Origin: Escherichia coli
GTDB lineage: Bacteria; Pseudomonadota; Gammaproteobacteria; Enterobacterales; Enterobacteriaceae
Direction: 5' to 3' (one strand)
DNA length: 64,000 nt
Assembly (NCBI RefSeq): GCF_024223415.1
Contig: NZ_CP100501.1
Below the pieces are notes generated by a model. The model worked only from the letters and a program-made list of their open reading frames with translations. It had not been told where the DNA came from and did not search any database. Positions 12,543-29,950 of this stretch are shown here, piece after piece (position 1 is the stretch's first letter; each line of letters opens with the position of its first letter). The translations under genes were made by a program, and so were the position numbers.

Positions 12543-12827
12543 ATGCAAATGAAAAACAATACCGCACAGGCAACAAAAGTCATTACCGCGCATGTGCCAT
12601 TACCAATGGCTGATAAAGTCGACCAGATGGCCGCCAGACTGGAACGCTCCCGGGGCTGGGTTATCAAACAGGCGCTTTCTGCATGGCTTGCCCAGGAGGA
12701 GGAGCGTAATCGCCTGACGCTGGAAGCCCTGGACGATGTGAAATCCGGACAGGTTATCGACCATCAGGCTGTACAGGCCTGGGCGGACAGCCTCAGTACT
12801 GACAATCCGTTACCGGTGCCACGCTGA
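12543..12827 (+). CDS. Ribbon-helix-helix antitoxin (ParD/CopG-like)
   Basis: 94-aa ORF overlapping the downstream toxin by ATGA. Confidence 0.75.
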   Translation: MQMKNNTAQATKVITAHVPLPMADKVDQMAARLERSRGWVIKQALSAWLAQEEERNRLTLEALDDVKSGQVIDHQAVQAWADSLSTDNPLPVPR

Positions 12828-13102
12828 TGGAACTGAAGTGGACCAGTAAGGCGCTTTCTGATTTGGCGCGGTTATATGATTTTCTGGTGCTGGCCAGTAA
12901 ACCTGCGGCCACCAGAACGGTGCAGTCCCTGACACAGGCACCGGTCATTCTGTTAACTCATCCACGTATGGGAGAACAGTTGTTTCAGTTTGAACCCAGG
13001 GAGGTCAGACGGATTTTTGCTGGCGAGTACGAAATCCGTTACGAACTTAATGGCCAGACTATTTATGTATTGCGCCTGTGGCACACACGAGAAAACAGGT
13101 AG
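12827..13102 (+). CDS. RelE/ParE-family toxin
   Basis: 91-aa ORF, C-terminal ...YVLRLWHTRENR typical of RelE/ParE. Confidence 0.8.
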   Translation: MELKWTSKALSDLARLYDFLVLASKPAATRTVQSLTQAPVILLTHPRMGEQLFQFEPREVRRIFAGEYEIRYELNGQTIYVLRLWHTRENR

Positions 13103-13609: not shown

Positions 13610-14902
13610 TCAGGCCGGCACATACCTCAGCAGACTGATATCCCGCGCGTTTTTCTTCAGCCCTGATACATTCAGCCCCGCAAGGGCCCGGCGGTATACC
13701 ATCCGGCCGCCACACAGCACGCATTCGAACGGGTCACGACTCAGGAACTGTTTCACCATTTGTGCATAGCACACTTTCGCCACCGGTTCCGGTTTATCCA
13801 TCCCCAGAGCTCGGTACACCTGCGGCAGCTTCTCTCCACACCCCCGGTTGGCAAGGAACCCGAAGTACCTCACCATCTTAAAAAACTTCTCCGGGATGTG
13901 CTGTTTCATCCTCGCGACCAGCTCACGCTGCGTCAGCGTTTCCGTCGCTGTCTCTCCCGTTTTGTGGTCCAGGTAACGGAAGCTCAGGCTCGCCCCTCCG
14001 TTGTAATGTGCCAGCCGGGAAGCCGCTATTGGTGGCTTCTTCAGATAACGACCCAGGTAGCGTGCCGTATTCCGCCCGCCGGCCGTCTTCTTCGACATGT
14101 ACACATGCCAGTATTTTCCGCCGGCTTTCAGCACCAGGCTTCTCCACTGTGATTCCGTCGTGATATGTGACAACGACTCCGGCATCGCCATCCCCTCTGA
14201 CCACGCTTTCAGAAGCAACTGCCGTATATTCCACATCCACCGCGAACGCATTGCGTCTTTCAGGAAGCTCAGCTTTTTCCACTGACCGTGCTTATTCAGC
14301 CCCCCGCAGGTTACTGACACATGTACATGCGGATGCCAGTTGAGACGACGGCCATATGTGTGGATGGCGCAGAAGATACCGGGTTCCAGCCCCCGTTTTC
14401 GGGCGGCATACAGCAGCCAACGGTTGCTTTCGAACACCGGCCACAGCGTGTCCGGCAGGGTGAAGACCAGGTGTACCCAGTCGCAGTCAGGAAGACGATT
14501 CAGCTGTGTCGCTGTCCACAGGTCTGTGGCCTTTTTTCCGCAGGACGGGCAGGCACGGCTGCCACATGAGTTAGTGACGTATCTGACGTGGGGACAGTCA
14601 GGTTTATCGCAGTTGTATTCCTTCACGCCCAGTATCCGCGTGCCGCAGGCCAGCATTTTGGTGACAGCCTCAACCTCGATATCGCGCAGACCGCCCGCAT
14701 CCAGGAAGGACGTCCAGCACTGGTTGGCTGTGAACAGGCGTTTCAGCGGACGGGGCTGAAAATCACCACCACTTCGGGTCATCCATCCTGCACGCTCCAT
14801 CTGATAATGTTCTGACAGGTAAAAATAATATCCCGCATGATTTGTGTGCTCATGATTTCTGATAATATCAGATATGGTTTTATCATCAATGATGAAAATC
14901 AT
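13610..14902 (-). CDS. IS91-family (HUH rolling-circle) transposase
   Basis: Cys-rich zinc-binding N-terminus, HxH (HPHVHV) and paired-Tyr region; true start probably internal (MERAGWMTRSGG...). Confidence 0.85.
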   Translation of the reverse strand: MIFIIDDKTISDIIRNHEHTNHAGYYFYLSEHYQMERAGWMTRSGGDFQPRPLKRLFTANQCWTSFLDAGGLRDIEVEAVTKMLACGTRILGVKEYNCDKPDCPHVRYVTNSCGSRACPSCGKKATDLWTATQLNRLPDCDWVHLVFTLPDTLWPVFESNRWLLYAARKRGLEPGIFCAIHTYGRRLNWHPHVHVSVTCGGLNKHGQWKKLSFLKDAMRSRWMWNIRQLLLKAWSEGMAMPESLSHITTESQWRSLVLKAGGKYWHVYMSKKTAGGRNTARYLGRYLKKPPIAASRLAHYNGGASLSFRYLDHKTGETATETLTQRELVARMKQHIPEKFFKMVRYFGFLANRGCGEKLPQVYRALGMDKPEPVAKVCYAQMVKQFLSRDPFECVLCGGRMVYRRALAGLNVSGLKKNARDISLLRYVPA

Positions 14903-15139
14903 ATCTGATATGATTTTATGTGAATTGCTTAATTAGCATATCATTTGCCCGTTTCCCGCCGTGCAGATCCGGTTTCCGGCGAAGTCGGATCGACCTAATC
15001 TTTGTTTCTGATATGAACATCTCGGAGAGGTGTAAGCAATGGTATAAACGAAATGTATTATGTATCTGCATCACAGCATGCGGGCACATTTTGCGGCAGG
15101 ATATGAATCCCCCCGGAATAACTGGCAAAGGACAGATAA

Positions 15140-17234
15140 ATGGACATTGAAATACGCCACTGCAATAACATCGTACGAGCACATATCACCCTCACTGCCG
15201 ATAAACTGAACATTAAGTTTGCGCCAAATGGTACTGGAAAAAGTACGCTGTCACGGGCCATAAGCTGTGCGGCGCGGGACGACATTCAGGGACTACAGGC
15301 ACTGATGCCCTTCCGGCTGCGCGGAGAAAACCCCGATAGCACCGGGCCCATTGTCATCGGTGCTGACGGGATTGGGGACGTGATGTGCTTCAACGAGGAG
15401 TACGTCAGTCAGTTTACGTTCCAACCGGACGAGCTCATCAGTGACAGCTTTAATATTCTTATCCGCAATCAAGCCCATGCGGAAAGAGAGCGTGAAATAG
15501 AAGAAATGACGCAAAAGATCCGGGCTGTTTTCACGGATCACACTGAGCTGAACTCTCTGATAGACCATCTACAGGAACTCAGTAATGCTTTCAAATCAAC
15601 CAGTTCCGGGATTTCACGTTCTTCAACCGGCATGAGAGGTCTGTCAGGCGGAAATAAAATACACCACATTCCGGCTGGTCTTGAGAACTATCAACCCTAC
15701 ATCCGCAGTGAACGCCGCGTGGAATGGATTGACTGGCAGACAAAGGGACTCGAGTTTTCGCCCCTTTCGGATGGCTGCTGTCCGTTCTGTACCGGTGATA
15801 TCACGGGAAAGGAAGCACAAATTCGCCAAGTCAGAGAGGAATACGATAAATCCACCATTAAAAATGACGGAGAGCGCCAGAGAACGCCTTCTGGCCATTA
15901 CTATGCTTCAGAACGGTCCGGAAGCCGAACATATCGAGTACCTAGTGGCGTTGAAACGCCAGACCGATACGCTGACAGAGAAACTCACTGCGCTGAGAGG
16001 CCTGAATGTTTTCAGCCTGCAGGAACAGCAGAACGTTCGGGAGGTGCTCACTGCCAGGTTGATTGACCTGCAGTTCTTCCCTGATCTGCAATCCGAACTC
16101 ATGCAGGGGATCACCGACAGACTGAACGCGGCCCTTATGGACCTGATAAACCTTGCCGGACCGCTGCAGGGAAAAATTAACCGGCACCGGGACAGCATGA
16201 TCCGGCTGATCGCACAGCACAAAACAAACATCAATAATTTCCTCACTTATGCAGGCTATAAATACAGGGTGGATATAGCCGGCGAGGGAGAGCAGAGAAA
16301 ACTCAGGCTACGACACATAGATTTTGACGGGTACGTCAGCGGCGGTAGCCAGCATCTCAGCTATGGAGAACGGAACGCCTTTGCGATTGTGTTATTCATG
16401 TATGAATGCCTGTCAAAAAACCCGGGACTGATTATCCTTGATGATCCCATATCTTCTTTTGATAAAAACAAGAAGTTTGCCATTCTTGAAATGCTGTTCA
16501 GACGTGCAAGTGGTGAATGCCTGAAGAACCGGACTGTACTTATGCTGACGCATGACGTGGAGCCTGTGATTGACACGCTGAAGTCAGTCAGAAGGTTGTT
16601 CAGTAATCAGGTGACCGCCTCCTGCCTGCGCCTGTCTGCTGGAGTCATAGAAGAATTACCTGTTAACGACGGCGATATCATGACATTCATGCAGATCTGC
16701 AAATCCATCACCGCGTCAGCAGACTGTGAGGAGATCATTAAGCTCATCTATCTTCGTCGCTACTTTGAAATCGTTGACGAACGTGGTGATGCTTATCAGC
16801 TTCTATCCAATCTATTCCATCGACGCGTCGCCCCGCTGGATTATCGCGAGCCTGCCGCTGCGGGCTCGGGCTATCCCAAAATGGCTCCTGAGAAAATTCA
16901 GCAGGCCTTGCGGGATATCCGGGAGTATGTGGACAGTTTTGATTACCCGCGACTTCAGGCTCTCGTCAGCAGCCCAGATGAAATAAAAAACCTGTACCGT
17001 CGCTGTCGTAACGGCTATGAAAAACTGCAGGTATTCCGTTTACTGGAACTGGATCAGGACCATCCGGTAATACGAAAATTCGTTAACGAAACGTACCACA
17101 TTGAAAATGAGTTCATCTGTCAACTAGATCCGTCCAGATTCGATCTCATCCCGGAGTACGTGATTATGGAATGTGACAAGTTCATCGCCCTGCCACCGGC
17201 AGCAAACCAGAGCTCGGTTGCCCGTATCGCTTGA
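15140..17234 (+). pseudogene. Rad50/RloC-like ABC ATPase with CxxC hook-like motif and about 240-aa C-terminal domain of unknown function; split by a frameshift in an A5 run
   Basis: Walker A FAPNGTGKST (N-terminal ORF 15140..16066); CPFC motif mid-insert; ABC signature LSYGERNAF, Walker B LIILDD, H-loop LMLTHD (C-terminal ORF, other frame); frames rejoin if one A is removed at 15860..15864. Confidence 0.65.
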
Positions 17235-17395
17235 GCCACTGTTTTTGCCGCCGGAAGATAGGCTTTAGCTCCCTGATAGTCTGATCTTCGAAGATACCCT
17301 ACAGTTTAGGACCGCTTACTGTAGATATCTGTTAAAACAGCCCGTATACGGGCTGTTTCTTGGTGCCCTTATCTCCTGACTTTGAAAAGAGTGTC

Positions 17396-17812
17396 TTACT
17401 TCACCCAGTCTTCCAGCACCAGGTCAGGCACTCGCTCAAATTCTCTTGTATTATTCGTTACCAGTATCGCCCCGGCGGCGATGGCGTGCCCGGCAATCGC
17501 CGTGTCGTTCGGGCCGATCGGCGTCCCGGCCAGCCGCAGTGCCACTTTAATCTTCGTGGTGGCGTCTACTGCGGCGCGATCCCAGGGCAGGATGGCATCG
17601 AGGCGGGCGCAGAATTCATCGACCAGTTGGACGTGACGTGGTGAGGCCTTTGGGCCGGTAGCCCCGAAGCGCATTTCAGAGTAGGTGATGGCCGAGACCA
17701 CTATACGGTGGCCGCGTAGCACCGCCTGCTCCAGACGCTTCAGGACGGCTTCTGGCTGTTCACGCATGATGAACGAGCAGATACAGGTATCAAGCATATA
17801 AGTCTTGTTCAC
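17396..17812 (-). CDS. vapC: PIN-domain toxin VapC (VagD-like)
   Basis: MLDTCICSF... PIN signature; overlaps upstream antitoxin gene. Confidence 0.85.
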   Translation of the reverse strand: MNKTYMLDTCICSFIMREQPEAVLKRLEQAVLRGHRIVVSAITYSEMRFGATGPKASPRHVQLVDEFCARLDAILPWDRAAVDATTKIKVALRLAGTPIGPNDTAIAGHAIAAGAILVTNNTREFERVPDLVLEDWVK

Positions 17813-18039
17813 AGGTTAAATCGCCCTTCGTCGCTGACAACATCCTCGCGCTCCGCCATAAAATCTGGATCGGCTTTTTCGTACTCTAGGAATGATCCCC
17901 AGGTTGGCCGGACGGGGCGCAGGATGATGCTGTCCCCTTCCCGGACGATCTCGAGCTCGCTCACCCCCTCAAAATCCAGATCACGAGGCAGACGGATGGC
18001 GCGGTTGTTGCCATTTTTAAATATCGATACGGTTCTCAT
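17809..18039 (-). CDS. vapB: AbrB/SpoVT-type antitoxin VapB (VagC-like)
   Basis: 76-aa ORF MRTVSIFKNGNNRAIRLP..., 4-bp overlap with vapC. Confidence 0.8.
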   Translation of the reverse strand: MRTVSIFKNGNNRAIRLPRDLDFEGVSELEIVREGDSIILRPVRPTWGSFLEYEKADPDFMAEREDVVSDEGRFNL

Positions 18040-18598
18040 GTTCTTTCTCTCCCGAGCATATGGATATGTGAAACATATCCGGAATATTCAAAGCACCGGG
18101 TGTGTGCATATGTTTAGTATAGGCAGATGTGTGGCATATGTATAGCGGTAGCATATGTAGATGCCATGCATATGTTTAGCATATCCCTATTTCTTTCTTT
18201 TTTATCGGAGATCCGAAAAAAGGTTGTTCAGGATCTTCCTCTCCCCCCACACAACGCCACCTCCTGTAAGCACAACATGTGGTGCCGGATTCAGCTGCTG
18301 ATGACACTATATGTTGTGTCATCTCCCTGACCTGTGATGCGTCGCGCAGGGGCGGAAAACAGCGATATGATGATTTCCTCAGCGTGGTACACTTCCGGAA
18401 AGTTGTGATATTCTGGAAAGTCGGATCTGACGGAAACGGCTCTCCGGTAATTTAACGGCGTGGTTATATGGATGCTTGTTATCATGGTGATGATGATAAC
18501 GGCATGATGTTATCAGACGGCGTGACGGTAAGGGCAGTGATGATGGATGACGTTATCGCATGACCGTCCCTGCCCGGAAAAGAAAAAAGGAGTCACCC

Positions 18599-19012
18599 AT
18601 GTTTTTTATTAAGAATGAAGGTCAGGCTGTCGCCAGAACGGATTACTGGCAGTCTGTACAGGCGCAGGCCGGATATGTCTACCTCAGCTGGAATGCCGGC
18701 GCAGCCAGGCTGCTTGTCCCGGATGCGGCAAAACATTTACTCAGGGAGATGCGGGGGGCTGAGTACGTCATCATCAGTAAGGGAACGCTGCATGGCCGCG
18801 ATGCGCTGGAACTGATATTTGAAGACGGCAGCGATGCGCCGTTCGTGATCCACATGCTGAGCGAGCAGTGCGATCGCCTGCTCCCCGAAAACAACCAGGG
18901 CGGGGGTTTTGTTGTCACCGTCTGGACGCGTGGCGGTAACCAGCTCCGTTATCCGGGAAAGTACCGTGTTGTGGAAAACCTGCCCGACGTTTCCCCGTGG
19001 AGTGAACACTGA
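18599..19012 (+). CDS. Hypothetical protein upstream of the recombinase
   Basis: Start at ATG 18599 with AAGGAG RBS; stop overlaps the recombinase start (TGATATG). Confidence 0.5.
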   Translation: MFFIKNEGQAVARTDYWQSVQAQAGYVYLSWNAGAARLLVPDAAKHLLREMRGAEYVIISKGTLHGRDALELIFEDGSDAPFVIHMLSEQCDRLLPENNQGGGFVVTVWTRGGNQLRYPGKYRVVENLPDVSPWSEH

Positions 19013-19013
19013 T

Positions 19014-19799
19014 ATGCAGCACCTGCCGGCACCGATCCACCATGCCCGGGATGTCGCTCAGCTTCCTGTTGCCATCGATTATCCGGCAGCGCTGGCACTC
19101 CGCCAGATGTCGATGGTTCATGATGAACTGCCAAAATACCTGCTGGCCCCTGAAGTGAGCGCCCTGCTCCATTACGTCCCGGATCTGCGCCGCAAGATGC
19201 TGCTGGCCACACTGTGGAACACCGGTGCGCGCATTAATGAAGCACTGGCGCTGACGCGGGGGGATTTTTCGCTTGCGCCCCCGTATCCGTTTGTGCAGCT
19301 GGCCACTCTGAAGCAGCGGACAGAAAAAGCCGCCAGGACGGCAGGAAGAATGCCCGCCGGTCAGCAGACTCACCGGCTGGTTCCGCTTTCCGACACCTGG
19401 TACCTCAGCCAGCTGCAGACGATGGTGGCCACACTGAAAATCCCCATGGAACGGCGTAATAAACGAACAGGCAGGACAGAGAAAGCGCGGATCTGGGAAG
19501 TGACGGACAGAACGGTCAGGACCTGGATTGGGGAGGCGGTTGCCGCCGCTGCCGCTGATGGTGTGACGTTCTCTGTCCCGGTCACGCCACATACGTTCCG
19601 CCATTCCTATGCGATGCACATGCTGTATGCCGGTATACCGCTGAAGGTCCTGCAGAGCCTGATGGGGCATAAGTCCATCAGCTCAACGGAGGTCTACACG
19701 AAGGTGTTTGCACTGGATGTCGCGGCGCGCCATCGTGTGCAGTTCGCTATGCCGGAAGCCGATGCGGTAGCGCTGATAAAACAACTTGAGAGGCGTTAA
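19014..19799 (+). CDS. Tyrosine site-specific recombinase (FimB/XerC-like)
   Basis: C-terminal HTFRHS...LMGHKSISSTEVYTKV with R-H-R-Y residues; track ORF 18909..19799 includes an unlikely N-terminal extension. Confidence 0.85.
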   Translation: MQHLPAPIHHARDVAQLPVAIDYPAALALRQMSMVHDELPKYLLAPEVSALLHYVPDLRRKMLLATLWNTGARINEALALTRGDFSLAPPYPFVQLATLKQRTEKAARTAGRMPAGQQTHRLVPLSDTWYLSQLQTMVATLKIPMERRNKRTGRTEKARIWEVTDRTVRTWIGEAVAAAAADGVTFSVPVTPHTFRHSYAMHMLYAGIPLKVLQSLMGHKSISSTEVYTKVFALDVAARHRVQFAMPEADAVALIKQLERR

Positions 19800-20039
19800 A
19801 AAGCCGTATTCGCGGTTCAGTCAAGGGGGAGCTGGTGCATCCATCTGTGGAAGATAGAGCACCAAACTCATAGAGGCCACGTTCTCAGGCCAGAACAGTC
19901 TTATATCTCTGGCGCTGACAACCCATAGTACTTGCCTGGATGGGAAACTCTTCTTGTGCTGAGCGTAAGAGCCATCTGCCGGAACGCTTCCTCGCCAGTT
20001 CGCTCGCTACGCACAGTTACATGGCTGCGGCGAGGGCTG

Positions 20040-20400
20040 CCTGATTCTAATAATGATATTTCAGCATGATAGCAGCAATAAAATAGATTGCAGCTATCAT
20101 GCTGTACACATACGGCCTAGCGCTCTGCTTATGTTATGCTATCTGCAATCTTGCGGCAATCTTGCTTCATCTGTCGATGCGATTCTGAATGAGGTTTCTT
20201 TTATTGTTAACGTGACACAAGTATTCGGCTGTCAATTCCAGCACTCTGCTAAGTAGCAAGATTTAATCTTGCTACTAGATTTTTTATTGTTGCAATCTTG
20301 CTGCAAGCTGTTATCTTGTTCTGGAAGAGTTACTCTACCTAACCTCAATCTGGTTTATATTGATGTTTGCTGCAAGATAGCAGCAAGTAAAGGGGGCTAA
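20040..20400. repeat. Array of GCAATCTTGC/GCAAGATTGC-type repeats and palindromes upstream of parA (putative operator/centromere)
   Basis: Recurrent motif at about 20065, 20140, 20255, 20290 and 20365; repeated again at 21410..21500. Confidence 0.55.
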
Positions 20401-21033
20401 ATGGCCTGGATAGTTGGTTTTATTTCTCAGAAAGGTGGTGTGGGCAAAAGCACTAAAGCGAGAGCGTTAGCGCGTGAAGCATCCGCCTGTGGTATCAAAA
20501 CAAAATTAGCTGATCTCGACTTGGAACAGGCAACGAGTGCTGAGTGGCATCGTAGACGTCTGTCAGCTGGTTTGTCACCGGTTGCTTCAGTTGAAGTGTT
20601 TTCAACAGCAAAGCAGGCGATAGAATCTGCCGGCGATTTTGACCTTCTGATTCTTGATGGCCCTGCTCGTGCAAGTAAAGGTACTTCAGAAATTGCTAAG
20701 GTCGCCGACCTTATCGTCCAGCCAACGGGGGCCTCCCTTGACGATCTTGTCCCGGCAATTAAAGTTTTCAACGCGTTGGTAAAAGAAGGTATACCACGTT
20801 CAAAACTGGTCTTCGCTTTAAGCCGGGTAGGTACCGAAGCGGAAGAGCTGGATGCTCGTGCATATATCAGTGAAGCAGGTTATGAAACTTTATCTGGATG
20901 CCTTTTTGAGAAGCCAGCATACAGAAAAGCGATGAATTCAGGACTCGCTGTGACAGAAACACGTTATAAAGGTTTAAACGAGAGAGCTGATGAACTTATC
21001 CAGGCACTCATCGATAAGATTGGAGAAGAGTAA
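20401..21033 (+). CDS. parA: ParA-family partition ATPase (small type Ib)
   Basis: Deviant Walker A KGGVGKST at the N-terminus; 210 aa. Confidence 0.85.
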   Translation: MAWIVGFISQKGGVGKSTKARALAREASACGIKTKLADLDLEQATSAEWHRRRLSAGLSPVASVEVFSTAKQAIESAGDFDLLILDGPARASKGTSEIAKVADLIVQPTGASLDDLVPAIKVFNALVKEGIPRSKLVFALSRVGTEAEELDARAYISEAGYETLSGCLFEKPAYRKAMNSGLAVTETRYKGLNERADELIQALIDKIGEE

Positions 21034-21407
21034 TGGCTGATGCGTCAAAACTTAGAACTAAAAGAACCCGTAGTGGGTTGGGGGTACCCCCGGGCCCCGA
21101 CGAAGTGGCTACCAGCTTGAATGCGCCTGAGATAGCTCCGGCTGTCGCTGCCACTGATGTTCAGAGACAACAGGCAGACTCATCGCCAGTGCACCATGAG
21201 CCTGTGGTTACGCAAACTGTGACCGAGGTATATACCCGCCGCGATGGCCGTTCTGCCAGAAAAACAAACAGGACGCTGGCATTTGCAACACGTGTCACAC
21301 CTGCTTTCGACCAAGAGATCCGGGATATCGCAGAGCGTGAGGGGTTGAAACTGGTGGAAGTTCTGGAAAAAGCAGTTGAGGCATATAAGGAAAAACAGGG
21401 CTATTAA
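21033..21407 (+). CDS. Putative centromere-binding partner of ParA (ParG/ParB-like)
   Basis: 124-aa ORF directly after parA (ATGA overlap), followed by a second repeat block. Confidence 0.5.
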   Translation: MADASKLRTKRTRSGLGVPPGPDEVATSLNAPEIAPAVAATDVQRQQADSSPVHHEPVVTQTVTEVYTRRDGRSARKTNRTLAFATRVTPAFDQEIRDIAEREGLKLVEVLEKAVEAYKEKQGY

Positions 21408-21409
21408 TC

Positions 21410-21500
21410 CGGGATGCAGCAATCTTGCTGCATTCTTTTTTTGTGTGCAATCTTGCAGCAAGATTTATGCTAGATAAATGCTAGATTGCTGCAAGATAAA
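21410..21500. repeat. Second block of GCAATCTTGC-type repeats, upstream of stbA
   Basis: gcagcaatcttgctgcattc ... tgcaatcttgcagcaagattt ... ctagattgctgcaagataaa. Confidence 0.5.
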
Positions 21501-21645
21501 TGATATAATGCTCAAATTGAGTAGTTAACTGCCCCAGGTAAGTACGCAGCTTGAGTACTTACCTGTGGTTTATGAACGTATTTACTTAATGTGAGTAGTT
21601 ATTGGGTGAAGATTAATACTCAAATTGAGTATAAATGGAGATGGT

Positions 21646-22620
21646 ATGAGAATTTTTTGCGATGATGGTTCTACAAATGTGAAACTTGCCTGGTTTGAAG
21701 GCAAGACGCTGAAAAGTGCGGTATCAGTGAACTCTTTTCGCCATAACTGGAAAGTCGAGGGCTTAGGCAGCAGTCGTACCTATAACTATTTGCTTGATGG
21801 CCGTAAATATACCTACGACCCGGTCAGCGAAGATGCGATCAGCACGACTCATATTGAGTATCAGTACTCTGATACAAATGTGTTGGCAGTTCACCACGCA
21901 TTACTGAACAGTGGAATTGAACCCCAGGAGATCGATCTCACCGTTACGTTACCTATCAGCGAGTTTTACACGGCCGACTGCCAGAAAAATACGCTTAACA
22001 TTGAGAGAAAAATTCGCAACCTGATGCGGGAAGTCACCCTGAACAAAGGGGGAACTTTTACCATTAAAAGCGTTGAAGTGATGCCTGAATCACTCCCGGC
22101 TGTATTTACTCGCCTAGTTGCTGACAATGTTGGTCAGTACGAAAAATCATTGGTTATCGATCTCGGTGGTACAACTCTGGATGTCGGGGTTATTGTTGGC
22201 CAGTTTGAGGATGTTTCGGCTGTACATGGTAATCCTGATATTGGTGTATCAATGGTCACGAAAGCCACGCTCACTGCACTGAAAATGGCCAGCAGTGATA
22301 CCAGTCCAATGATTGCTGACGAGTTGATCAAAAACAGGAAGAACCTGGATTTTGTGGGGCAGGTTGTAAATGAGGTTTCTAAACTAAATCTGGTGCTGGA
22401 TACCATTGATACAGCGATAAATAAACTGGGCGAGCTAGTTGTTGATGATTTGCTGCAGTATCGAAACGTAAACCGCGTATATATTGTCGGAGGCGGGGCT
22501 GCACTCATTGCTGATGCTGTTCGTAAGGCATGGAACCACCTTGGCGAAAAGGTGGTTCTTATGGATGAACCTCAGACAGCGCTGGTCCAGGCTATTGCAC
22601 GCTTCAAAGCGGAGGAGTAA
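21646..22620 (+). CDS. stbA: Actin-like segregation ATPase StbA/ParM
   Basis: MRIFCDDGSTNVKLAW N-terminus (actin-fold phosphate-1 motif); start at ATG 21646 with GGAG RBS. Confidence 0.85.
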   Translation: MRIFCDDGSTNVKLAWFEGKTLKSAVSVNSFRHNWKVEGLGSSRTYNYLLDGRKYTYDPVSEDAISTTHIEYQYSDTNVLAVHHALLNSGIEPQEIDLTVTLPISEFYTADCQKNTLNIERKIRNLMREVTLNKGGTFTIKSVEVMPESLPAVFTRLVADNVGQYEKSLVIDLGGTTLDVGVIVGQFEDVSAVHGNPDIGVSMVTKATLTALKMASSDTSPMIADELIKNRKNLDFVGQVVNEVSKLNLVLDTIDTAINKLGELVVDDLLQYRNVNRVYIVGGGAALIADAVRKAWNHLGEKVVLMDEPQTALVQAIARFKAEE

Positions 22621-22623
22621 TCG

Positions 22624-23016
22624 ATGTACGACGGCGAAGAAAGGAAAAAACTTTCACTCTACCTTCACCCGGAGGACTCTGCCGATTGTCTTGCACTGGC
22701 TGAAATCGAAACTGTTCCCCGGAAAAAACGGGGGGAGTTATATCGGCAGGCTTTGATAACCGGCCTGATAATGCATCAGCTTGATGAGAGAATTCCCGCC
22801 GTGTTAACCGCGCTATTCACCAGAGAACTGAATGCGGATGAGGTCATTAGTCAGATTGCCAGGATAACAGGCTGGAAACCCTCCTCCGGTGATTTAAAAG
22901 AGGTACTGAAGGCGTTGGGAGGGCTTCAGAGTACAGTTTCACCAGAACTCTCTCAGGATGACGGTGAACAGGCCCGTCTGAAAGCGGCTAGGGTGAAGAT
23001 GCAAAAGCTAATCTAA
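22624..23016 (+). CDS. stbB: StbB/ParR-like partition adaptor
   Basis: 130-aa ORF immediately downstream of stbA. Confidence 0.6.
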   Translation: MYDGEERKKLSLYLHPEDSADCLALAEIETVPRKKRGELYRQALITGLIMHQLDERIPAVLTALFTRELNADEVISQIARITGWKPSSGDLKEVLKALGGLQSTVSPELSQDDGEQARLKAARVKMQKLI

Positions 23017-23171
23017 AAAAGTCTCGCTCCGTGAAACCTGCAAAATTTCTCGGGGTGTGCGGCTTAATTTTTAGATTTCCGCGTTTCCCGTCATTTGAGT
23101 CAATGGAGTGCTGGTTGACAGCTCCCTGCTCTGAAGGACGGGGATTCCCACATATGCAGCCAGATTTCCGG

Positions 23172-23279
23172 CTAGTGTGGTTTCAGACGTTGTTCGATTT
23201 CATTCTGTAGCGCCTGAAGTGTGCCTGATTTGAGGTTTTTTGTGCTCTGGCGGTCGAAAAGAATTTCAATGCGGATCAT
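23172..23279 (-). CDS. DinI/ImpC-like small ORF, apparently truncated (35 codons)
   Basis: MIRIEILFDRQSTKNLKSGTLQALQNEIEQRLKPH resembles the DinI N-terminus; GGGAGA RBS; LexA box just upstream. Confidence 0.35.
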   Translation of the reverse strand: MIRIEILFDRQSTKNLKSGTLQALQNEIEQRLKPH

Positions 23280-23300
23280 GTTCTCATCTCCCTTTTATTT

Positions 23301-23320
23301 TACTGTGTATATATACAGTA
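23301..23320. promoter_or_regulatory. LexA (SOS) box
   Basis: TACTGTGTATATATACAGTA, one mismatch from the CTGT-N8-ACAG consensus palindrome. Confidence 0.65.
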
Positions 23321-23672
23321 TTCTAATAACTGAATCCACACACAGTCAAATGTCATTGTTGTGACTAAAAAACGCTCAATTCTCTGAGAGTGTGGCTGTA
23401 TGCCTGCTGTGGACTGCTGTGTCCAGCTTATCCACAGCATTTTGTGCACGGTTCTGTGGACAAAATACCTGGTTACCCAGGCCGTGCCGGCACGTTAACC
23501 GGGCTGCATCCGATGCAAGTGTGTCGCTGTCGCCGGCCTTCTCACCCGGTCACGTTTCGTCGTTCCTCCTCCACGAGCTGCGGCTTCGGGGCCGCACCTG
23601 CATTCGTATGCGGTCGCCCGGTTACAGGTGCGGCACGGCCTGATGGAGGCCGCATGTGAGAGGAGAATTCCC

Positions 23673-24599
23673 ATGCCAAACTGGTGCTCAAATCGTATGT
23701 ATTTTTCTGGTGAACCGGCACAGATTGCTGAGATTAAACGACTGGCCAGCGGTGCAGTCACACCGTTTTATCGCCGCGCCACAAATGAAGGTATTCAGCT
23801 GTTTCTGGCCGGAAGTGCCGGACTTCTGCAGACCACTGAAGATGTGCGGTTTGAACCATGTCCCGGACTGACGGCTGCCGGACGTGGCGTTGTATCGCCG
23901 GAGAATATCGCGTTCACCCGCTGGCTGACATACCTGCAGGACGGTGTACTGCTGGATGAGCAAAACTGCCTGATGCTGCATGAACTCTGGCTGCAGAGCG
24001 GTACTGGACAGCGTCGCTGGGAAGGATTACCGGACGATGTCAGGGATACCATCACCGCACTTTTCACCGCAAAAAGAGGTGACTGGTGTGGCTTCTGGAG
24101 TAACGAAGATGTATCGGTGTGGTGGAACCGTCTGTGTGACAACGTACTGCCGGAAAAAACCATGCCGTTTGACCTGCTGACGGTTCTGCCCACCCGCCTG
24201 GATGTTGAAGTGAATGGCTTTAACGGTGGTGTTCTGAACGGTGTTCCTTCTGCATATCACTGGTATACGGAACGGTATGGCGTGAAGTGGCCTGTGGGGT
24301 ATGAGGTGAATATCAGTAATCAGGGAGACAACTTCATTAAGGTGGATTTCGACACGCCGTGGTGTCAGCCGGAAAGCGACGTTATTGCAGAATTAAGCCG
24401 CCGTTTCAGCTGCACGCTGGAGCACTGGTATGCCGAACAGGGCTGTGATTTCTGTGGCTGGCAGTTGTATGAGCGCGGAGAGCTCGTTGATGTGCTGTGG
24501 GGGGAACTGGAATGGTCTTCCCCGACAGATGACGATGAGCTGCCGGAAGTCACCGGACCTGCGTGGATAGTCGACAATGTGGCGCATTATGGCGGATGA
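23673..24599 (+). CDS. Hypothetical leading-region protein
   Basis: Start MPNWCSNRMYF at ATG 23673 with GAGAGGAG RBS; conserved-looking, function unknown. Confidence 0.6.
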   Translation: MPNWCSNRMYFSGEPAQIAEIKRLASGAVTPFYRRATNEGIQLFLAGSAGLLQTTEDVRFEPCPGLTAAGRGVVSPENIAFTRWLTYLQDGVLLDEQNCLMLHELWLQSGTGQRRWEGLPDDVRDTITALFTAKRGDWCGFWSNEDVSVWWNRLCDNVLPEKTMPFDLLTVLPTRLDVEVNGFNGGVLNGVPSAYHWYTERYGVKWPVGYEVNISNQGDNFIKVDFDTPWCQPESDVIAELSRRFSCTLEHWYAEQGCDFCGWQLYERGELVDVLWGELEWSSPTDDDELPEVTGPAWIVDNVAHYGG

Positions 24600-24981
24600 A
24601 GTATGACGGAGACGGGCGGGCAACTGCCCGTTTCTTTTCCGGTAAAGGATGTCGCCATGCTCCTCTTTTTACTGCGCCGGCTGACGCGGCGCGGCATAAA
24701 CGCTGCCTGTGGTCAGTGTCCCGCGTCCGGTGGGCACGGGACGGGCGCTTTTACCGCTCCCGGCTGGCGTCGGTGACAGTGTACGCCAGCCTGTCGCCCT
24801 TTTCTGATGAACGCCCTTCAAGCCGCTTTCGCGGCATAACCTTGCCGTCAAACAGACGACGGCTGCGGTATTCCACGGTCGGCCTGACCCGTTACCGGAC
24901 GCGGTGAACAGCCCACAGGCAGCGGGGAACGGGCACCACAGGGGTGCCCTCCCGGTGCCCCCTGTAAGAGAAGGAGCTGTT

Positions 24982-25665
24982 ATGTCCCGTTTTATCCTGG
25001 GTGACTGCGTGCGTGTTATGGCCACGATTCCTGATAACGCCATTGATTTCATATTAACCGATCCGCCATATCTCGTCGGTTTCCGTGACCGTTCCGGGCG
25101 CACCATTGCCGGTGACGTTAATGATGACTGGCTGCAACCGGCCTGTAATGAGATGTACCGCGTACTCAAAAAAGACGCGCTGATGGTCAGCTTCTACGGC
25201 TGGCACCGTATTGACCGCTTTATGGCGGCCTGGAAACGCGCCGGATTCAGCGTGGTTGGCCACCTGGTCTTCACCAAAAACTACACATCCAAATCTGCGT
25301 ATGTCGCGTACCGCCACGAATGCGCTTACATCCTGGCAAAGGGCAGTCCGGCCCGGCCCCGTAACCCGCTGCCGGATGTGCTGGGCTGGAAATATTCGGG
25401 CAACCGCCATCACCCGACGGAAAAGCCCGTTACCAGCCTGCAACCGCTGATTGAGAGCTTCACACATCCGAACGCGATTGTGCTGGATCCGTTTGCAGGC
25501 AGCGGTTCAACCTGCGTGGCCGCCCTTCAGTCCGGACGCCGGTATATCGGTATCGAGCTGCTTGAACAGTATCACCGTGCCGGACAGCAACGACTGGCCG
25601 CCGTGCAACGGGCCATGCAGCAGGGGGCCGCGAATGATAACTGGTTTATGCCGGAGGCTGCGTAA
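24982..25665 (+). CDS. Orphan DNA methyltransferase (N6-adenine/N4-cytosine class, beta-group order)
   Basis: DPPY motif near the N-terminus and FAGSGST near the C-terminus; start MSRFILGD with GAAGGAG RBS; no adjacent restriction gene. Confidence 0.85.
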   Translation: MSRFILGDCVRVMATIPDNAIDFILTDPPYLVGFRDRSGRTIAGDVNDDWLQPACNEMYRVLKKDALMVSFYGWHRIDRFMAAWKRAGFSVVGHLVFTKNYTSKSAYVAYRHECAYILAKGSPARPRNPLPDVLGWKYSGNRHHPTEKPVTSLQPLIESFTHPNAIVLDPFAGSGSTCVAALQSGRRYIGIELLEQYHRAGQQRLAAVQRAMQQGAANDNWFMPEAA

Positions 25666-25887
25666 ATGAACTATGCCGGACACGAAAAACTTCGCGCCGA
25701 CGTGGCGGAGGTGGCCAATGCCATGTGCGACCTGCGTACAACCATGAATGAGATGGAGCGGCGGTACAGCTTTAATGCTGACACCCTGCCGGAACGTCTG
25801 GTGCGTCAGACGTTGTTTCGCGCAAACCGCCTCCTGATGGAGGCATATACCGAAATTCTGGAACTGGATTCCTGCTTCAAAGATTGA
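25666..25887 (+). CDS. Hypothetical small protein
   Basis: 73-aa ORF tightly packed after the methyltransferase. Confidence 0.5.
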   Translation: MNYAGHEKLRADVAEVANAMCDLRTTMNEMERRYSFNADTLPERLVRQTLFRANRLLMEAYTEILELDSCFKD

Positions 25888-25900
25888 GAAGGAGACGAGA

Positions 25901-26335
25901 ATGTACGGAACATGCGAAACGCTATGCCGGGCGCTGGCAGCAAAGTATCCGGGAGATACGCCGCTGATGCTGGTTATCTGGTCCCCGGAAGAAATTCAGG
26001 CCCTCGCTGACGGAATGGATATTTCCCTGTCCGATCATGAAATCAGGACTGTCCTGGCGCGGCTGGCGGACATCCCGGAAGACCAGCGGACTGAGTCCGG
26101 TATTTCTTCCGGCGTGGCGATGGAGATTATCAGCAACGTGAGCGAAAACCGCCAGGTGACCGTCCCGGCTGAACTGCTGGCGTCCCTGATTCAGACCGCC
26201 GAACAGGCACTGTGGAAACGTGAATGGGCCGCCCGTGATTACGGCCTCGCCGTCCCGGAATGCGTCACCCGCCGTCAGGCGGTGGTTAATCAGGCCCGCA
26301 TCCTGCTGAAAAACAACCCACACGAAAACGACTGA
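25901..26335 (+). CDS. Hypothetical leading-region protein
   Basis: 144-aa ORF; shares a ...R.VTVPA.LL... block with the ORF at 28037..28456. Confidence 0.55.
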   Translation: MYGTCETLCRALAAKYPGDTPLMLVIWSPEEIQALADGMDISLSDHEIRTVLARLADIPEDQRTESGISSGVAMEIISNVSENRQVTVPAELLASLIQTAEQALWKREWAARDYGLAVPECVTRRQAVVNQARILLKNNPHEND

Positions 26336-26379
26336 TGTTATCGCCGCCTTCGGGCGGCGATTCAGGGAGACCATGAATC

Positions 26380-27150
26380 ATGAACAAAACGCTGAATGCA
26401 CTGGTTTGTCACCACGCCCGTAACCTGCTGCTGGCGCAGGGCTGGCCGGAAGAGACGGATGTTGACCAGCGTAACCCGAAGTATCCGGGCTGGATCAGCA
26501 TTTATGTTCTGCTGGATGCGCCCCGGCTGGCGACGTTACTTATCAACCGTCACGGCGGCGTACTGCCGCCGCTCCTGGCCTCCGCCATTCACAAACTGAC
26601 CGGAACCGGGGCGGAAGTTGTACTGTCCGGCAGTCAGTGGCAGTCGCTGCCGGTACTTCCGGCAGACGGAACGCAGGTGTCTTTCCCGTATGCCGGAGAA
26701 TGGCTGACCGAAGACGAAATCAGGGCAGTTCTTGATGCAGTGCGCGATGCGGTACGCAGTGTCAGTTGCCGGGTGACAGAAGATGCGCGGCGTATCAGGG
26801 CGGCGCTGACCACAACCGGTCAGACGTTGCTGACCCGCCAGACGCGGCGCTTTCGCCTGGTTGTGAAGGAAAGCGATCACCCCTGCTGGCTCGATGAAGA
26901 CGACGAAAACCTGCCCGTGGTGCTCGATGCCATCCTGAACCGGGGCGCTCGTTTTTCTTCGGTGGAAATGTATCTGGTCAGTGAGTGTGTGGAGCATATC
27001 CTGTCCAGTGGGCTGGCCTGCGATGTGCTGCGTATACCGGATGAACCGCCCCGCCGGTGGTTTGACCGTGGTGTTCTGCGGGAGGTGGTCCGGGAAGCCC
27101 GGGCCGAAATCCGCAGCATGGCGGATGCCCTGGCAAAAATCCGGAAATGA
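26380..27150 (+). CDS. Hypothetical leading-region protein
   Basis: 256-aa ORF with RBS. Confidence 0.55.
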
Positions 27151-27217
27151 TGACGCTGGCGGGGAAAAATCTCCGCCTTTTCCAGCCGGTCCCCGGAAAG
27201 AGCAAAAGGATGTCGCC

Positions 27218-27548
27218 GCAGGCTCCGCTTTACTCGGCCATGCGGGGCATGGCCTTGTGGGTTTTCAGTTATGTGGCCTCAGCGTCGTGTGCGGGCTGTG
27301 CCGTGCCTCCATCGTAGCCGGGCTTCTGCGGGCGGGTTGCAAGGTAAGGTGAACCGCTGCGGTCACCCGGTCCCTCCTTCCCGTCTGCCGTGATTTTCCG
27401 GTCGTTCACCCGCTCAGATTTCGCGGTCTCACCCTCCAACTCCCGCCAGCCGTGTGCGTCAGGCTGCGGCTTCCCTTGCGCCCTTGCAACCCTGCAGGCC
27501 CGGCAAAGATGGAGGCACGGCACCGCCCGGTGTCGCGGAATATGTGAA
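27218..27548 (+). repeat. Leading-region repeat family A, copy 1 (single-strand promoter-like)
   Basis: About 330 bp, near-identical by eye to 34139..34478; ends about 17 bp before the klcA start. Confidence 0.6.
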
Positions 27549-27564
27549 CAACGGAGGAAATCCC

Positions 27565-27990
27565 ATGCAGTATGCGAAACCTGTCACCCTGAACGTTGAA
27601 GAGTGCGACCGCCTTTCTTTTCTGCCTTACCTGTTTGGCAACGATTTTCTGTATGCCGAGGCGTATGTGTACGCGCTGGCGCAAAAAATGATGCCGGAAT
27701 ATCAGGGAGGCTTCTGGCATTTCATCCGCCTGCCGGACGGTGGCGGTTACATGATGCCGGATGGCGACCGTTTTCATCTGGTCAACGGTGAAAACTGGTT
27801 TGACCGCACTGTGAGTGCTGATGCCGCAGGCATCATTGTTACGTCTCTTGTGATTAACCGCCAGTTGTGGCTGTACCACGACAGCGGGGATGCGGGACTG
27901 ACACACCTGTACCGGATGCGTGATGCGCAGTTGTGGCGTCACATCGAATTTCACCCCGAATGCAACGCGATTTACGCGGCACTGGACTGA
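27565..27990 (+). CDS. klcA: Antirestriction protein KlcA/ArdB family
   Basis: MQYAKPVTLNVEECDRLSFLPYLFGNDFLYAE... with GGAGGA RBS. Confidence 0.85.
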   Translation: MQYAKPVTLNVEECDRLSFLPYLFGNDFLYAEAYVYALAQKMMPEYQGGFWHFIRLPDGGGYMMPDGDRFHLVNGENWFDRTVSADAAGIIVTSLVINRQLWLYHDSGDAGLTHLYRMRDAQLWRHIEFHPECNAIYAALD

Positions 27991-28036
27991 TTAACGGACG
28001 GGGCGGCAATGCCGCCCCTGTAAAGGAGACGAGAAC

Positions 28037-28456: not shown

Positions 28457-28647
28457 TGAATATCAGCACGGAAACCCGCGAAATTCTGCGTAATTACAGG
28501 GCCGTGATTAATGCGCGGCGTCGTGAAATGGGGCAGAAACCGCTCACCACCGCGCAGATTGTTGATGAAATCTGTGATTTTGTGGCGAATCAGCAGGCGG
28601 TTTTCCTCGGTGGTCACTATATCCTTCAGGGCAGCAGGCACAGGTGA
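28456..28647 (+). CDS. Hypothetical small protein
   Basis: 63-aa ORF overlapping the upstream stop. Confidence 0.4.
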   Translation: MNISTETREILRNYRAVINARRREMGQKPLTTAQIVDEICDFVANQQAVFLGGHYILQGSRHR

Positions 28648-29395: not shown

Positions 29396-29400
29396 TTCTT

Positions 29401-29922: not shown

Positions 29923-29950
29923 CGAAAGACAGTGACAACCGCCCCGTCCA

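What the first reader, a model, noticed from the sequence alone, without database searches (positions are those of the whole stretch)
15140..17234. Frameshifted Rad50/RloC-like zinc-hook ABC ATPase next to IS91: candidate defence or abortive-infection gene
The two ORFs 15140..16066 and 15681..17234 are one gene split by an extra A in the A5 run at 15860..15864; removing one A joins ...EYDKSTIK to MTESARERLL.... The joined protein (about 700 aa) has Walker A (FAPNGTGKST) at the N-terminus, an insert of roughly 370 aa with a CPFC (CxxC) motif near its centre, then ABC signature (LSYGERNAF), Walker B (LIILDD) and H-loop (LMLTHD), then about 240 aa with no motif I recognise. This matches Rad50-like hook ATPases and the RloC/PrrC anticodon-nuclease family. 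The homopolymer frameshift could be inactivation, an on/off switch, or a sequencing error.
Basis: partly seen in the sequence, partly recalled or inferred. Interest (0 to 1): 0.7.

Follow-up and report, generated by a model that had tools for sequence, protein, structure and literature searches.

The report
Broken plasmid copy of RloC-like ATPase
This is a copy, broken by a 44-base deletion, of a very common plasmid gene for a Rad50-like ATPase that is already listed as a candidate anti-phage defence gene; the gene family is interesting but untested, and this copy cannot work.

Summary
The two overlapping ORFs (15140..16066, 15681..17234) are real and are one disrupted gene. The cause is not an extra A. 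Intact alleles, such as WP_000350635.1 (712 aa) on pAPEC-O1-ColBM, have the same A5 run. The window instead lacks 44 bp directly after it (junction 15864|15865). This removes conserved residues N242-L257 and shifts the frame. No record in 72,556 plasmids or 5,426 E. coli genomes has this junction, while more than 600 carry the intact gene.

The intact protein matches PADLOC candidate model PDC-S06 end to end (E=1e-273) and Pfam AAA_13. Its predicted head folds like SMC/Rad50. It has an invariant CPFC in a helical insert and a family-specific all-helical C-terminal domain. That domain has invariant R554, K661 and H668 and only weak HEPN-like fold matches.

Homologues (~55% identity across phyla) sit directly after type III res genes, inside a type I R-M locus, next to Hachiman or Fic, on prophage contigs, or alone. 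No partner gene is conserved.

So the RloC/PrrC-like architecture and defence context are supported. RloC membership is not shown, because the Arg-x3-Glu-x36-52-His triad spacing is not met. The homopolymer-switch idea is refuted. The finding is a pseudogene, or a sequence artefact, of an already catalogued candidate.

The parts
15128..15132 (+). Putative ribosome-binding site AAGGA, 7 nt before the ATG at 15140
   Evidence: Read directly from the sequence. Inferred, not tested.
15140..15864 (+). 5' part of the disrupted gene: codons 1-241 in the native frame plus 2 nt. It encodes the N-terminal ATPase lobe and the first half of the helical insert.
   Evidence: Identical to the first 725 nt of the intact allele in NC_009837.1.
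15218..15247 (+). Walker A / P-loop FAPNGTGKST (residues 27-36)
   Evidence: N30, G31, G33, K34 and S35 are invariant in alignment A1. G31 and K34 are invariant in the diverse alignment A3.
15779..15790 (+). CPFC motif (C214-P-F-C217), a zinc-hook-like CxxC in a short knuckle between helices of the insert
   Evidence: C214, P215 and C217 are invariant in A1. In A3, which goes down to 28% identity, C214 is invariant and P215 and C217 are at least 90% conserved.
15864..15865 (+). Deletion junction. The 44 bp present in all other alleles are missing between these two bases. This shifts the frame and removes residues N242-L257.
   Evidence: prefix match of 725 nt, then the 44-bp gap; the listed best records align in two pieces spanning 44 extra bases; the junction 44-mer is absent from both collections.
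15865..16066 (+). Out-of-frame tail of ORF1 (67 non-native residues, then TGA)
   Evidence: translation compared with the reference protein.
15681..15863 (+). Out-of-frame head of ORF2 (TTG start, 61 non-native codons). This is not part of the native protein.
   Evidence: In the native gene this stretch is read in the ORF1 frame.
15867..17234 (+). 3' part of the gene: native codons 258-712 plus the stop, now in a different frame from the start codon
   Evidence: There is one substitution against NC_009837.1 (L696F, 17181-17183).
16356..16382 (+). ABC signature LSYGERNAF (residues 421-429)
   Evidence: S422, G424 and N427 are invariant in A3.
16428..16445 (+). Walker B LIILDD (residues 445-450). 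The pair D449-D450 is invariant, so the second acidic residue is Asp rather than the usual Glu.
16539..16556 (+). H-loop LMLTHD (H486 invariant)
16665..17231 (+). Family-specific all-alpha C-terminal domain (residues 524-712), the putative effector. Invariant residues across the family are R554 (16755-16757), K661 (17076-17078) and H668 (17097-17099). E558 (16767-16769) is near-invariant.

Best explanation
The locus is an inactivated copy of a single-gene module that is very common on IncF-type plasmids of Enterobacteriaceae (WP_000350635.1, 712 aa, annotated 'AAA family ATPase').

Shown: a 44-bp internal deletion at 15864|15865 removes 16 conserved residues just after the CPFC motif and shifts the frame. 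Only an N-terminal 241-aa fragment with a nonsense tail can be made from the native start. The signature, Walker B and H-loop half of the ATPase and the C-terminal domain are cut off from it.

Shown: the intact protein belongs to PADLOC candidate family PDC-S06 and Pfam AAA_13. It has an SMC/Rad50-type ABC ATPase head, split by a helical insert of about 290 aa that carries an invariant CxxC. A family-specific helical C-terminal domain follows.

Inferred: by analogy with RloC and PrrC, the ATPase and hook part senses a signal of infection or failed restriction, such as DNA ends or a change in a restriction enzyme. It then releases the C-terminal domain, which is most likely a metal-independent HEPN-like RNase using R554/E558 and K661/H668. 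This would shut down translation and abort infection.

In this window the gene is dead, unless the deletion is an error in the sequence.
For: Lesion:
- the same A5 run is present in the reference, and 44 bp are missing in the window.
- 655 plasmid records and 561 E. coli genome records hold most of the query, and every listed record carries the 44 extra bases.
- the deletion allele is found nowhere else.
- the deleted residues include the invariant N242, L253 and G254.

Identity:
- PDLC04889 PDC-S06, E=1.3e-273, covering residues 1-683 against positions 1-688 of 693.
- Pfam AAA_13.
- SMC, Rad50, RecN and RecF heads.
- full-length model, pLDDT 82.8.

One gene, not two:
- More than 3,600 homologues of about 700 aa.
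- No conserved neighbouring gene in 26 loci.

Defence context:
- The gene lies directly downstream of type III res in three unrelated loci.
- It lies inside a type I hsd locus.
- It lies next to Hachiman HamB, Fic and a TIR protein.
- 22 full-length relatives are on IMG/VR viral contigs, and it matches phrog_2801.
- This context fits the description of ABC-HEPN proteins in PMC3710099.

Effector:
- R554, K661 and H668 are invariant, and E558 near-invariant, down to 28% identity.
- K661-x6-H668 lies in helix 657-672 of the domain-only model. In the full-length model the helix ends at 665 and residues 666-674 have pLDDT below 50. HEPN domains carry Rx4-6H at such a position, at the end of helix 3.
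Against: - No experiment on this family was found. PDC-S06 is only a candidate.
- The basic residue of the putative Rx4-6H motif is Lys, not Arg, and the residue after it is Phe, not polar.
- The RloC triad spacing is not met.
- The insert is a set of shorter helices (the longest has 53 residues), not a long Rad50-style coiled coil.
- Half of the homologues examined sit alone among housekeeping genes.
- The deletion may be an error in this sequence. A second private deletion lies 7 kb away.
Confidence: 0.72

Rival explanations
1. One reading: one extra A in the A5 run (15860-15864) splits the gene, possibly as a reversible slipped-strand on/off switch.
For: Deleting one A does formally restore an open frame of 697 codons.
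Against: - The intact allele has the same A5 run. The real difference is a 44-bp deletion next to it.
- The 'repaired' product lacks 16 conserved residues.
- No record with a different run length appears among the listed best records, which all show the 44-bp gap and 99.4-100% identity otherwise.
Confidence: 0.02
2. The gene is intact in the organism. The 44-bp gap is an error or alteration in this particular sequence, from assembly, cloning or editing, and not biology.
For: - The junction is unique among about 78,000 plasmid and E. coli genome records.
- The ORF1 product is absent from the large assembly index.
- A second private deletion of 80 bp lies in the same stretch, which is otherwise 99.9% identical to the reference. 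It removes the Walker A of an iron-transporter ATPase at ~8988.
- The 44-bp deletion has no flanking microhomology.
Against: - Small deletions that make pseudogenes are normal in plasmid accessory genes.
- Truncated alleles of this same gene are common. P0008 (544 aa) has 896 member sequences, and AFDB holds fragments of 184-582 aa.
- The 80-bp deletion is flanked by a short direct repeat (GCGGC), as expected for replication slippage.
- Typical sequencing errors are 1-bp indels, not 44-80 bp.
Confidence: 0.25
3. The intact protein is a true RloC orthologue, a zinc-responsive anticodon nuclease that excises the wobble nucleotide.
For: - The architecture is the same: ABC ATPase, CxxC insert and C-terminal domain. 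Pfam AAA_13 matches.
- An R554-x3-E558 motif resembles RloC R692-x3-E696 and PrrC R320-x3-E324.
- It is occasionally linked to type I and type III R-M loci, as reported for RloC.
Against: - No conserved His lies 36-52 residues after the Glu. H575 (x16) is not invariant, and the invariant H668 is at x109.
- The protein is about 90 aa shorter than GkaRloC (804 aa).
- The C-terminal part of AAA_13 is not matched.
- The C-terminal domain finds only its own family in 1.84 billion representatives and in AFDB50.
Confidence: 0.15
4. It is not an immune gene but an SMC/Rad50-like DNA-maintenance, repair or plasmid-stability ATPase.
For: - The head fold matches SMC, Rad50, RecN and RecF.
- On IncF plasmids it lies in the maintenance region near VapBC, RelE/ParE and recombinases.
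- Several homologues are solitary among housekeeping genes.
Against: - It has no Mre11/SbcD-type or kleisin-type partner and no conserved neighbour at all.
- Its distribution is patchy and horizontally spread, with about 55% identity across phyla.
- It is repeatedly placed after res genes or inside hsd loci, next to Hachiman, and on prophage contigs.
- It is lost or truncated in many plasmids.
- It matches a PADLOC candidate model.
Confidence: 0.08

Closest known systems
PADLOC candidate system PDC-S06 (model PDLC04889); Pfam AAA_13 / InterPro 'CR006 P-loop domain' proteins
   Same: The HMM matches end to end (E=1.3e-273). The C-terminal domain alone also matches it (E=5e-64). It is a single-gene module. 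The intact E. coli protein is the representative of a 1,587-member cluster.
   Different: The window copy carries a private 44-bp frameshifting deletion. PDC-S06 is a computational candidate, and no functional test was found in the searchable literature.
RloC (Geobacillus kaustophilus, Acinetobacter baylyi), a Rad50-like zinc-hook ABC ATPase fused to an anticodon nuclease
   Same: The N-terminal ABC ATPase is interrupted by a helical insert with a central CxxC. A C-terminal domain of about 190 aa carries an Arg-x3-Glu motif. It is a stand-alone gene that is sometimes R-M linked.
   Different: The triad His spacing is not met (x109, or x16 to a non-invariant His, against x36-52). The protein is shorter (712 against 804 aa). 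The insert is built of shorter helices. The C-terminal domain shows no detectable similarity outside its own family.
PrrC (EcoPrrC), an anticodon nuclease embedded in the type Ic R-M locus EcoprrI
   Same: It is an ABC-type NTPase followed by a C-terminal RNase-like domain. It is genetically coupled to restriction enzymes in a subset of loci: inside hsdM-hsdS...hsdR in L004, and directly after type III res in L002, L013 and L039.
   Different: PrrC has no CxxC/coiled-coil insert and is about 400 aa. The PADLOC PrrC model matches only residues 406-458, the ABC signature region (E=3e-4). The plasmid copy here has no adjacent R-M genes.
ABC-HEPN proteins of Anantharaman et al. 2013 (PrrC/RloC/APECO1_4465 group)
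   Same: The description fits. They are fused to an ABC ATPase, often lie in R-M operons with RhuM-like or Fic/Doc genes, and are also found in prophages. Compare the RhuM gene in L013, Bro-N in L004, Fic in L019, and the viral contigs.
Rad50/SbcC and SMC proteins
   Same: The ATPase head fold matches. The CPxC motif is at the centre of the insert. From my own knowledge, Rad50 hooks read CPVC or CPLC.
   Different: There is no long antiparallel coiled coil (the longest helix has 53 residues). There is no Mre11/SbcD partner. There is an extra C-terminal domain.

Membership tests
PADLOC PDC-S06 | Full-length match to a PDC-S06 profile HMM | tested here: met
   PDLC04889, E=1.3e-273, residues 1-683 against positions 1-688 of 693 (frame-repaired product); the C-terminal domain alone, E=5.1e-64.
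PADLOC PDC-S06 | Single-gene system with no obligatory partner | tested here: met
   across 26 loci, no flanking ORF family is shared by more than 3 loci, and those 3 loci are closely related to each other.
Pfam AAA_13 (PF13166) | HMM match to the split P-loop domain | tested here: met
   residues 21-142 against positions 16-120 (E=1e-4), and 403-474 against 497-572 (E=5e-9). PF13166 is also precomputed for nearly all homologues.
SMC/Rad50-type ABC ATPase | Walker A, Q-loop, ABC signature, Walker B and H-loop, with an SMC-like head fold | tested here: met
   Motifs are conserved. Foldseek against PDB gives SMC, condensin, cohesin, Rad50, RecN and RecF heads at E=1e-6 to 3e-4. Walker B reads DD rather than DE.
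SMC/Rad50-type ABC ATPase | Long antiparallel coiled coil emerging from the head | tested here: inconclusive
   residues 100-390 are helical but broken into helices of about 6-53 residues. Coordinates and PAE were not available, so helix pairing could not be checked.
Rad50/RloC zinc hook | Conserved CxxC at the centre of the insert | tested here: met
   C214-P-F-C217 is invariant in A1. In A3, C214 is invariant and C217 is at least 90% conserved. No other Cys or His in the insert is conserved family-wide. Two Zn ligands per chain would fit an intermolecular hook; this is an inference.
Rad50/RloC zinc hook | Zn2+ binding and dimerisation through the hook | not testable with these tools
   This needs metal analysis, SEC-MALS or a multimer model.
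RloC | C-terminal catalytic triad Arg-x3-Glu-x36-52-His (PMC2610378) | tested here: not met
   R554-x3-E558 is present, but no conserved His follows at 36-52 residues. H575 is at x16 and is not invariant in A3. The invariant H668 is at x109.
RloC | Sequence or profile homology of the C-domain to RloC orthologues | not testable with these tools
   No RloC sequence or model was available. Indirect evidence: the C-terminal part of AAA_13 is unmatched, and the C-terminal domain finds only its own family.
RloC / PrrC | Anticodon nuclease activity and self-limiting toxicity | not testable with these tools
   This needs an experiment.
PrrC | PrrC profile match across both the NTPase and nuclease domains, with no insert | tested here: not met
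   the PADLOC PrrC model matches only residues 406-458 (E=2.9e-4). The protein has an insert of about 290 aa.
HEPN superfamily | Four-helix up-down bundle with an insert between helices 2 and 3 | tested here: inconclusive
HEPN superfamily | Rx4-6H motif at the end of helix 3, followed by a polar residue after the Arg | tested here: inconclusive
   The invariant K661-x6-H668 lies in a helix that is followed by a low-confidence loop in the full-length model. However, Lys replaces Arg and Phe follows it. The definition is from PMC3710099.
Phase-variable (homopolymer) gene | Alleles that differ in the length of the repeat tract | tested here: not met
   Reference and window both have A5. The difference is a 44-bp deletion.

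The most novel reading that the evidence does not exclude
This reading concerns the intact family, not this dead copy. It proposes an uncharacterised, unusually conserved second-line immune module: a Rad50-like zinc-hook ATPase whose C-terminal domain is a new nuclease type. That domain would be HEPN-like, with a K-x6-H site plus R554/E558, and distinct from the RloC/PrrC anticodon nuclease domain. The module would be coupled in cis or in trans to type III and type I restriction enzymes and would fire when restriction fails.
Probability: 0.35. Interest if true: 0.55.

Novelty: already known. Interest (0 to 1): 0.25.

Why it matters
For this window the result is ordinary. It is a pseudogene, or a sequence artefact, of a gene present on hundreds of sequenced IncF plasmids, so it adds nothing functional to the plasmid.

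The check does correct the record. The lesion is a 44-bp deletion, not a homopolymer slip, so there is no phase-variable switch here.

The family behind it is worth a bench test:
- It is about 55% identical across distant phyla.
- It is repeatedly placed right after type III res genes, inside type I hsd loci and on prophages.
- It has no partner gene.
- Its C-terminal domain matches nothing characterised.

If the intact allele, which is available from pAPEC-O1-ColBM and many clinical plasmids, protects against phage, it would turn a PADLOC candidate into a defined system. It might also add a new effector domain to the RloC/PrrC class of R-M-backed abortive-infection nucleases.

Tried and rejected
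1. Homopolymer slip or phase variation: rejected by direct comparison with the intact allele.
2. Repeat-mediated deletion: a CCTGAC direct repeat flanks the region, but recombination between its copies would remove 42 bp in frame. The observed loss is 44 bp with no microhomology.
3. Search for the same deletion elsewhere: junction 44-mer against PLSDB and E. coli genomes, and exact ORF1 product against the assembly index. All were empty.
4. NCBIfam: only sub-threshold ABC-transporter and SMC matches.
5. PDB by sequence: only ABC transporter NBDs at weak E-values for the full protein, and nothing for the C-terminal domain profile.
6. Pfam on the C-terminal domain: no match even at E<=10.
7. AFDB50 fold search with the C-terminal domain: the 50 matches listed (of 69 at E<=0.001) are all members of its own family, and none is annotated as an anticodon nuclease.
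8. tblastn against 50,697 GenBank phage records: no match. However, phrog_2801 and IMG/VR contigs do hold relatives.
9. I tried to locate APECO1_4465, the ABC-HEPN prototype of PMC3710099, on the APEC O1 chromosome by position and in the paper's supplement. Both failed, so identity with that group is untested.
10. Literature searches for PDC-S06, WP_000350635, PF13166, AAA_13 and recent RloC work found no experimental test.
11. The promoter and terminator scan of the locus gave nothing above chance.
12. I considered comparing the C-terminal domain with the classical HEPN protein in L019. I dropped this because that protein lacks the catalytic motif, so a negative result would say nothing.
Full report
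**1. Observation**

The window has two overlapping + strand ORFs, 15140..16066 (308 aa, ATG) and 15681..17234 (517 aa, TTG). An AAAAA run lies at 15860-15864.

**2. The real lesion**

Megablast of 14900-17400 against PLSDB found 1,047 records, of which 655 cover at least 80% of the query. Every listed top record aligned in two pieces spanning 2,545 rather than 2,501 bases, and was annotated as one 'AAA family ATPase'.

I compared the window directly with pAPEC-O1-ColBM (NC_009837.1; CDS 94942-97080, WP_000350635.1, 712 aa):
- The first 725 nt are identical, including the A5 run.
- The reference then has 44 extra bases, CCTGACCGCTATCATCAGACTGGTGGAAAACCTCGGTAATTACC.
- The sequences then continue identically, apart from one substitution (L696F).

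So the frameshift is a 44-bp deletion at 15864|15865, not an inserted A.

A CCTGAC direct repeat lies nearby, but recombination between its copies would remove 42 bp in frame. The observed deletion has no microhomology.

The deletion removes residues N242-L257. These form most of helix 237-256, directly after the CPFC motif, and include the invariant N242, L253 and G254.

The allele is private to this window:
- A 44-mer across the junction has no match in 72,556 plasmids or in 5,426 complete E. coli genomes.
- The flanking 200 bp are found, with the 44 bp present in every listed record, in 668 plasmid records and 570 E. coli genome records.
- The exact ORF1 product is not on record in the large assembly index.

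The same stretch, which is 99.9% identical to the reference, holds a second private deletion. It is 80 bp, flanked by GCGGC, and removes the Walker A of an iron-transporter ATPase at ~8988. I cannot tell whether these two deletions are real decay or defects of this particular sequence.

**3. What the intact gene is**

Sequence and fold matches:
- PADLOC: model PDLC04889 (PDC-S06) matches end to end at E=1.3e-273. Other matches are weak: further PDC-S06 models, LmuB, mad3/mad8, AriA and PrrC (E=3e-4, ABC signature region only).
- Pfam: AAA_13 matches in two stretches.
- NCBIfam: nothing above cut-off.
- PDB by sequence: only weak ABC transporter NBD matches.

The family is large and strikingly conserved. 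There are more than 3,600 relatives of about 700 aa. They are about 55% identical between Enterobacteriaceae, Desulfobulbaceae, Kiritimatiellae, Cyanobacteria and Alphaproteobacteria, and the 40-sequence alignment has 69% mean column identity.

Structure from the AF2 model with that alignment (pLDDT 82.8):
- An ABC head is formed by residues 1-100 and 390-522.
- A helical insert spans residues 100-390. Its helices run from about 6 to 53 residues, and CPFC (214-217) sits in a small knuckle.
- An all-alpha domain spans 524-712.
- Foldseek against PDB returns SMC, condensin, cohesin, Rad50, RecN and RecF heads (E=1e-6 to 3e-4).

In a more diverse alignment (down to 28% identity) the invariant residues are:
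- the ATPase motifs (G31, K34, S422, G424, N427, D449, D450, H486);
- C214, with P215 and C217 at least 90% conserved;
- in the C-terminal domain, R554, K661, H668 and L677;
- near-invariant in that domain: R555, E558, S571, Y641, E642, K643, R648, E665, E670, N671, Q676, P686 and C693.

No other Cys or His of the insert is conserved. I infer from this that the hook is intermolecular, with two ligands per chain.

**4. The C-terminal domain**

Modelled alone, it is confident (pLDDT 84.9, pTM 0.80).

It matches nothing known by sequence:
- no Pfam family, even at E<=10;
- no PDB sequence;
- in PADLOC, only its own model.

A profile search of 1.84 billion representatives found 504 proteins. In the full-length ones the domain always lies at the C-terminus of proteins of about 700 aa, so it is specific to this family. 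The AFDB50 matches listed are all from the same family.

The layout fits the published HEPN description (PMC3710099):
- two N-terminal helices, one carrying R554-x3-E558;
- a variable insert (575-639);
- a helix carrying the invariant K661-x6-H668, followed in the full-length model by a low-confidence loop (residues 666-674, pLDDT below 50).

However, Lys replaces the Arg of the motif, and the residue after it is not polar.

The RloC/PrrC triad is defined as Arg-x3-Glu-x36-52-His (PMC2610378). Here Arg-x3-Glu is present but the His spacing is not met. The effector is therefore plausibly a HEPN-like RNase, but this is an inference, not a demonstrated homology.

**5. Genomic context**

On the plasmid the gene stands alone between an IS91 transposase and vapBC, with relE/parE and a recombinase further upstream.

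Elsewhere:
- It lies directly downstream of type III res in three unrelated loci: L002 (overlapping by 4 bp), L013 (with RhuM between mod and res) and L039.
- It lies inside a type I hsdM-hsdS...hsdR locus in L004.
- It lies next to Hachiman HamB in L037, after a Fic gene in L019, and near a TIR protein in L011.
- It is solitary among housekeeping genes in L006, L009 and L020.

Twenty-two full-length relatives lie on IMG/VR viral contigs, many close to a contig end. The protein matches phrog_2801 (E=6e-104), although no GenBank phage record holds a relative.

No flanking ORF is conserved across 26 loci, so it is a one-gene module.

[quoted passage not shown] I could not retrieve APECO1_4465 to test whether it belongs to the same family.

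**6. Mechanism**

Shown: the domain architecture, the conserved residues, the single-gene nature, the association with defence genes, and the disruption in this window.

Inferred: the protein works like RloC or PrrC. The ATPase and hook module holds the C-terminal domain inactive until infection, DNA damage or failure of restriction changes its state. The C-terminal domain then cleaves RNA and stops translation, which aborts the infection.

In this window the native start can only yield residues 1-241 plus 67 nonsense residues. The junction happens to create an in-frame ATG (15864-15866), but it has no recognisable ribosome-binding site, so the 3' part is probably not expressed (read from the sequence).

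**7. Known or new**

The exact protein is in RefSeq and is the representative of a 1,587-member cluster. PADLOC already has a dedicated model for it.

I found no experimental work. One preprint notes that an E. coli AAA-ATPase called PDC-S06 by PADLOC 'may represent' a true positive. Other papers only list PDC-S06 in inventories.

Truncated alleles are common (a 544-aa variant with 896 member sequences; AFDB fragments), so loss of this gene is not unusual.

**8. Verdict**

The finding is a disrupted copy of an already catalogued candidate defence gene, so interest is low for this locus. The intact family remains a reasonable target for experiment.

Noticed in passing
window 8983-8989 (gene remnant 8381..9004, - strand): This is a second private deletion relative to pAPEC-O1-ColBM. 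It is 80 bp, flanked by the short direct repeat GCGGC, inside the ATP-binding protein gene of the plasmid iron ABC transporter operon. It removes the Walker A (GPNGCGKS) coding segment and shifts the frame. No PLSDB record has this junction.
   Followed up: partly
window 13610..14902 (- strand), extra base at ~14577: The IS91-family transposase ORF is intact here (430 aa). The pAPEC-O1-ColBM copy lacks one base (window GTGACGT against reference GTGCGT) and is annotated as a CDS of 1,172 nt, which is not a multiple of three.
   Followed up: partly
window 17396..18039 (- strand) and 12543..13102 (+ strand): Two type II toxin-antitoxin pairs flank the region. VapC/VapB lies immediately downstream and convergent with the ATPase gene. 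An RHH antitoxin with a RelE/ParE toxin lies upstream of IS91. The names come from the annotation of the near-identical reference.
   Followed up: no
window 17334-17358: A perfect 7-bp stem, CAGCCCG-TATA-CGGGCTG, is flanked by AAAA on one side and TTT on the other. It lies between the convergent ATPase and vapC genes and looks like a bidirectional terminator. The terminator scan did not list it because the T run is short.
   Followed up: no
window 18482 onward; 15865-30000 compared: The window is collinear with, and about 99.9% identical to, pAPEC-O1-ColBM only up to ~18482. Beyond that the best PLSDB matches are ETEC plasmids (NC_009788.1, NZ_CP013193.1) at only ~96.6% identity. The source replicon is therefore a mosaic that is not represented closely in PLSDB.
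   Followed up: partly
L002 6001-8100; L013 6001-8103; L039 6001-8118: In three unrelated loci (one MAG, two metagenome or viral contigs) the homologue starts within about 90 bp of, or overlaps, the end of a type III restriction res gene on the same strand. This suggests co-transcription with the R-M system.
   Followed up: partly
L013 8129-12654: Directly downstream of the homologue in this type III R-M locus lies an SbcD-like (Metallophos/SbcD_C) and SbcC-like (AAA_23) gene pair, followed by DUF6880 and PRiA4_ORF3 genes. This may be a further defence module in the same island.
   Followed up: no
intact protein residues 449-450 (window 16440-16445): The Walker B motif ends in an invariant Asp-Asp (ILDDP) across the whole family, instead of the Asp-Glu usual in ABC ATPases. 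This may mean slow or regulatory ATP hydrolysis.
   Followed up: no
protein family: Truncated versions of this gene are widespread in databases. A 544-aa variant at 92% identity has 896 member sequences. AFDB holds fragments of 184-582 aa from E. coli, Salmonella and Klebsiella. This suggests repeated independent loss of function on plasmids.
   Followed up: no
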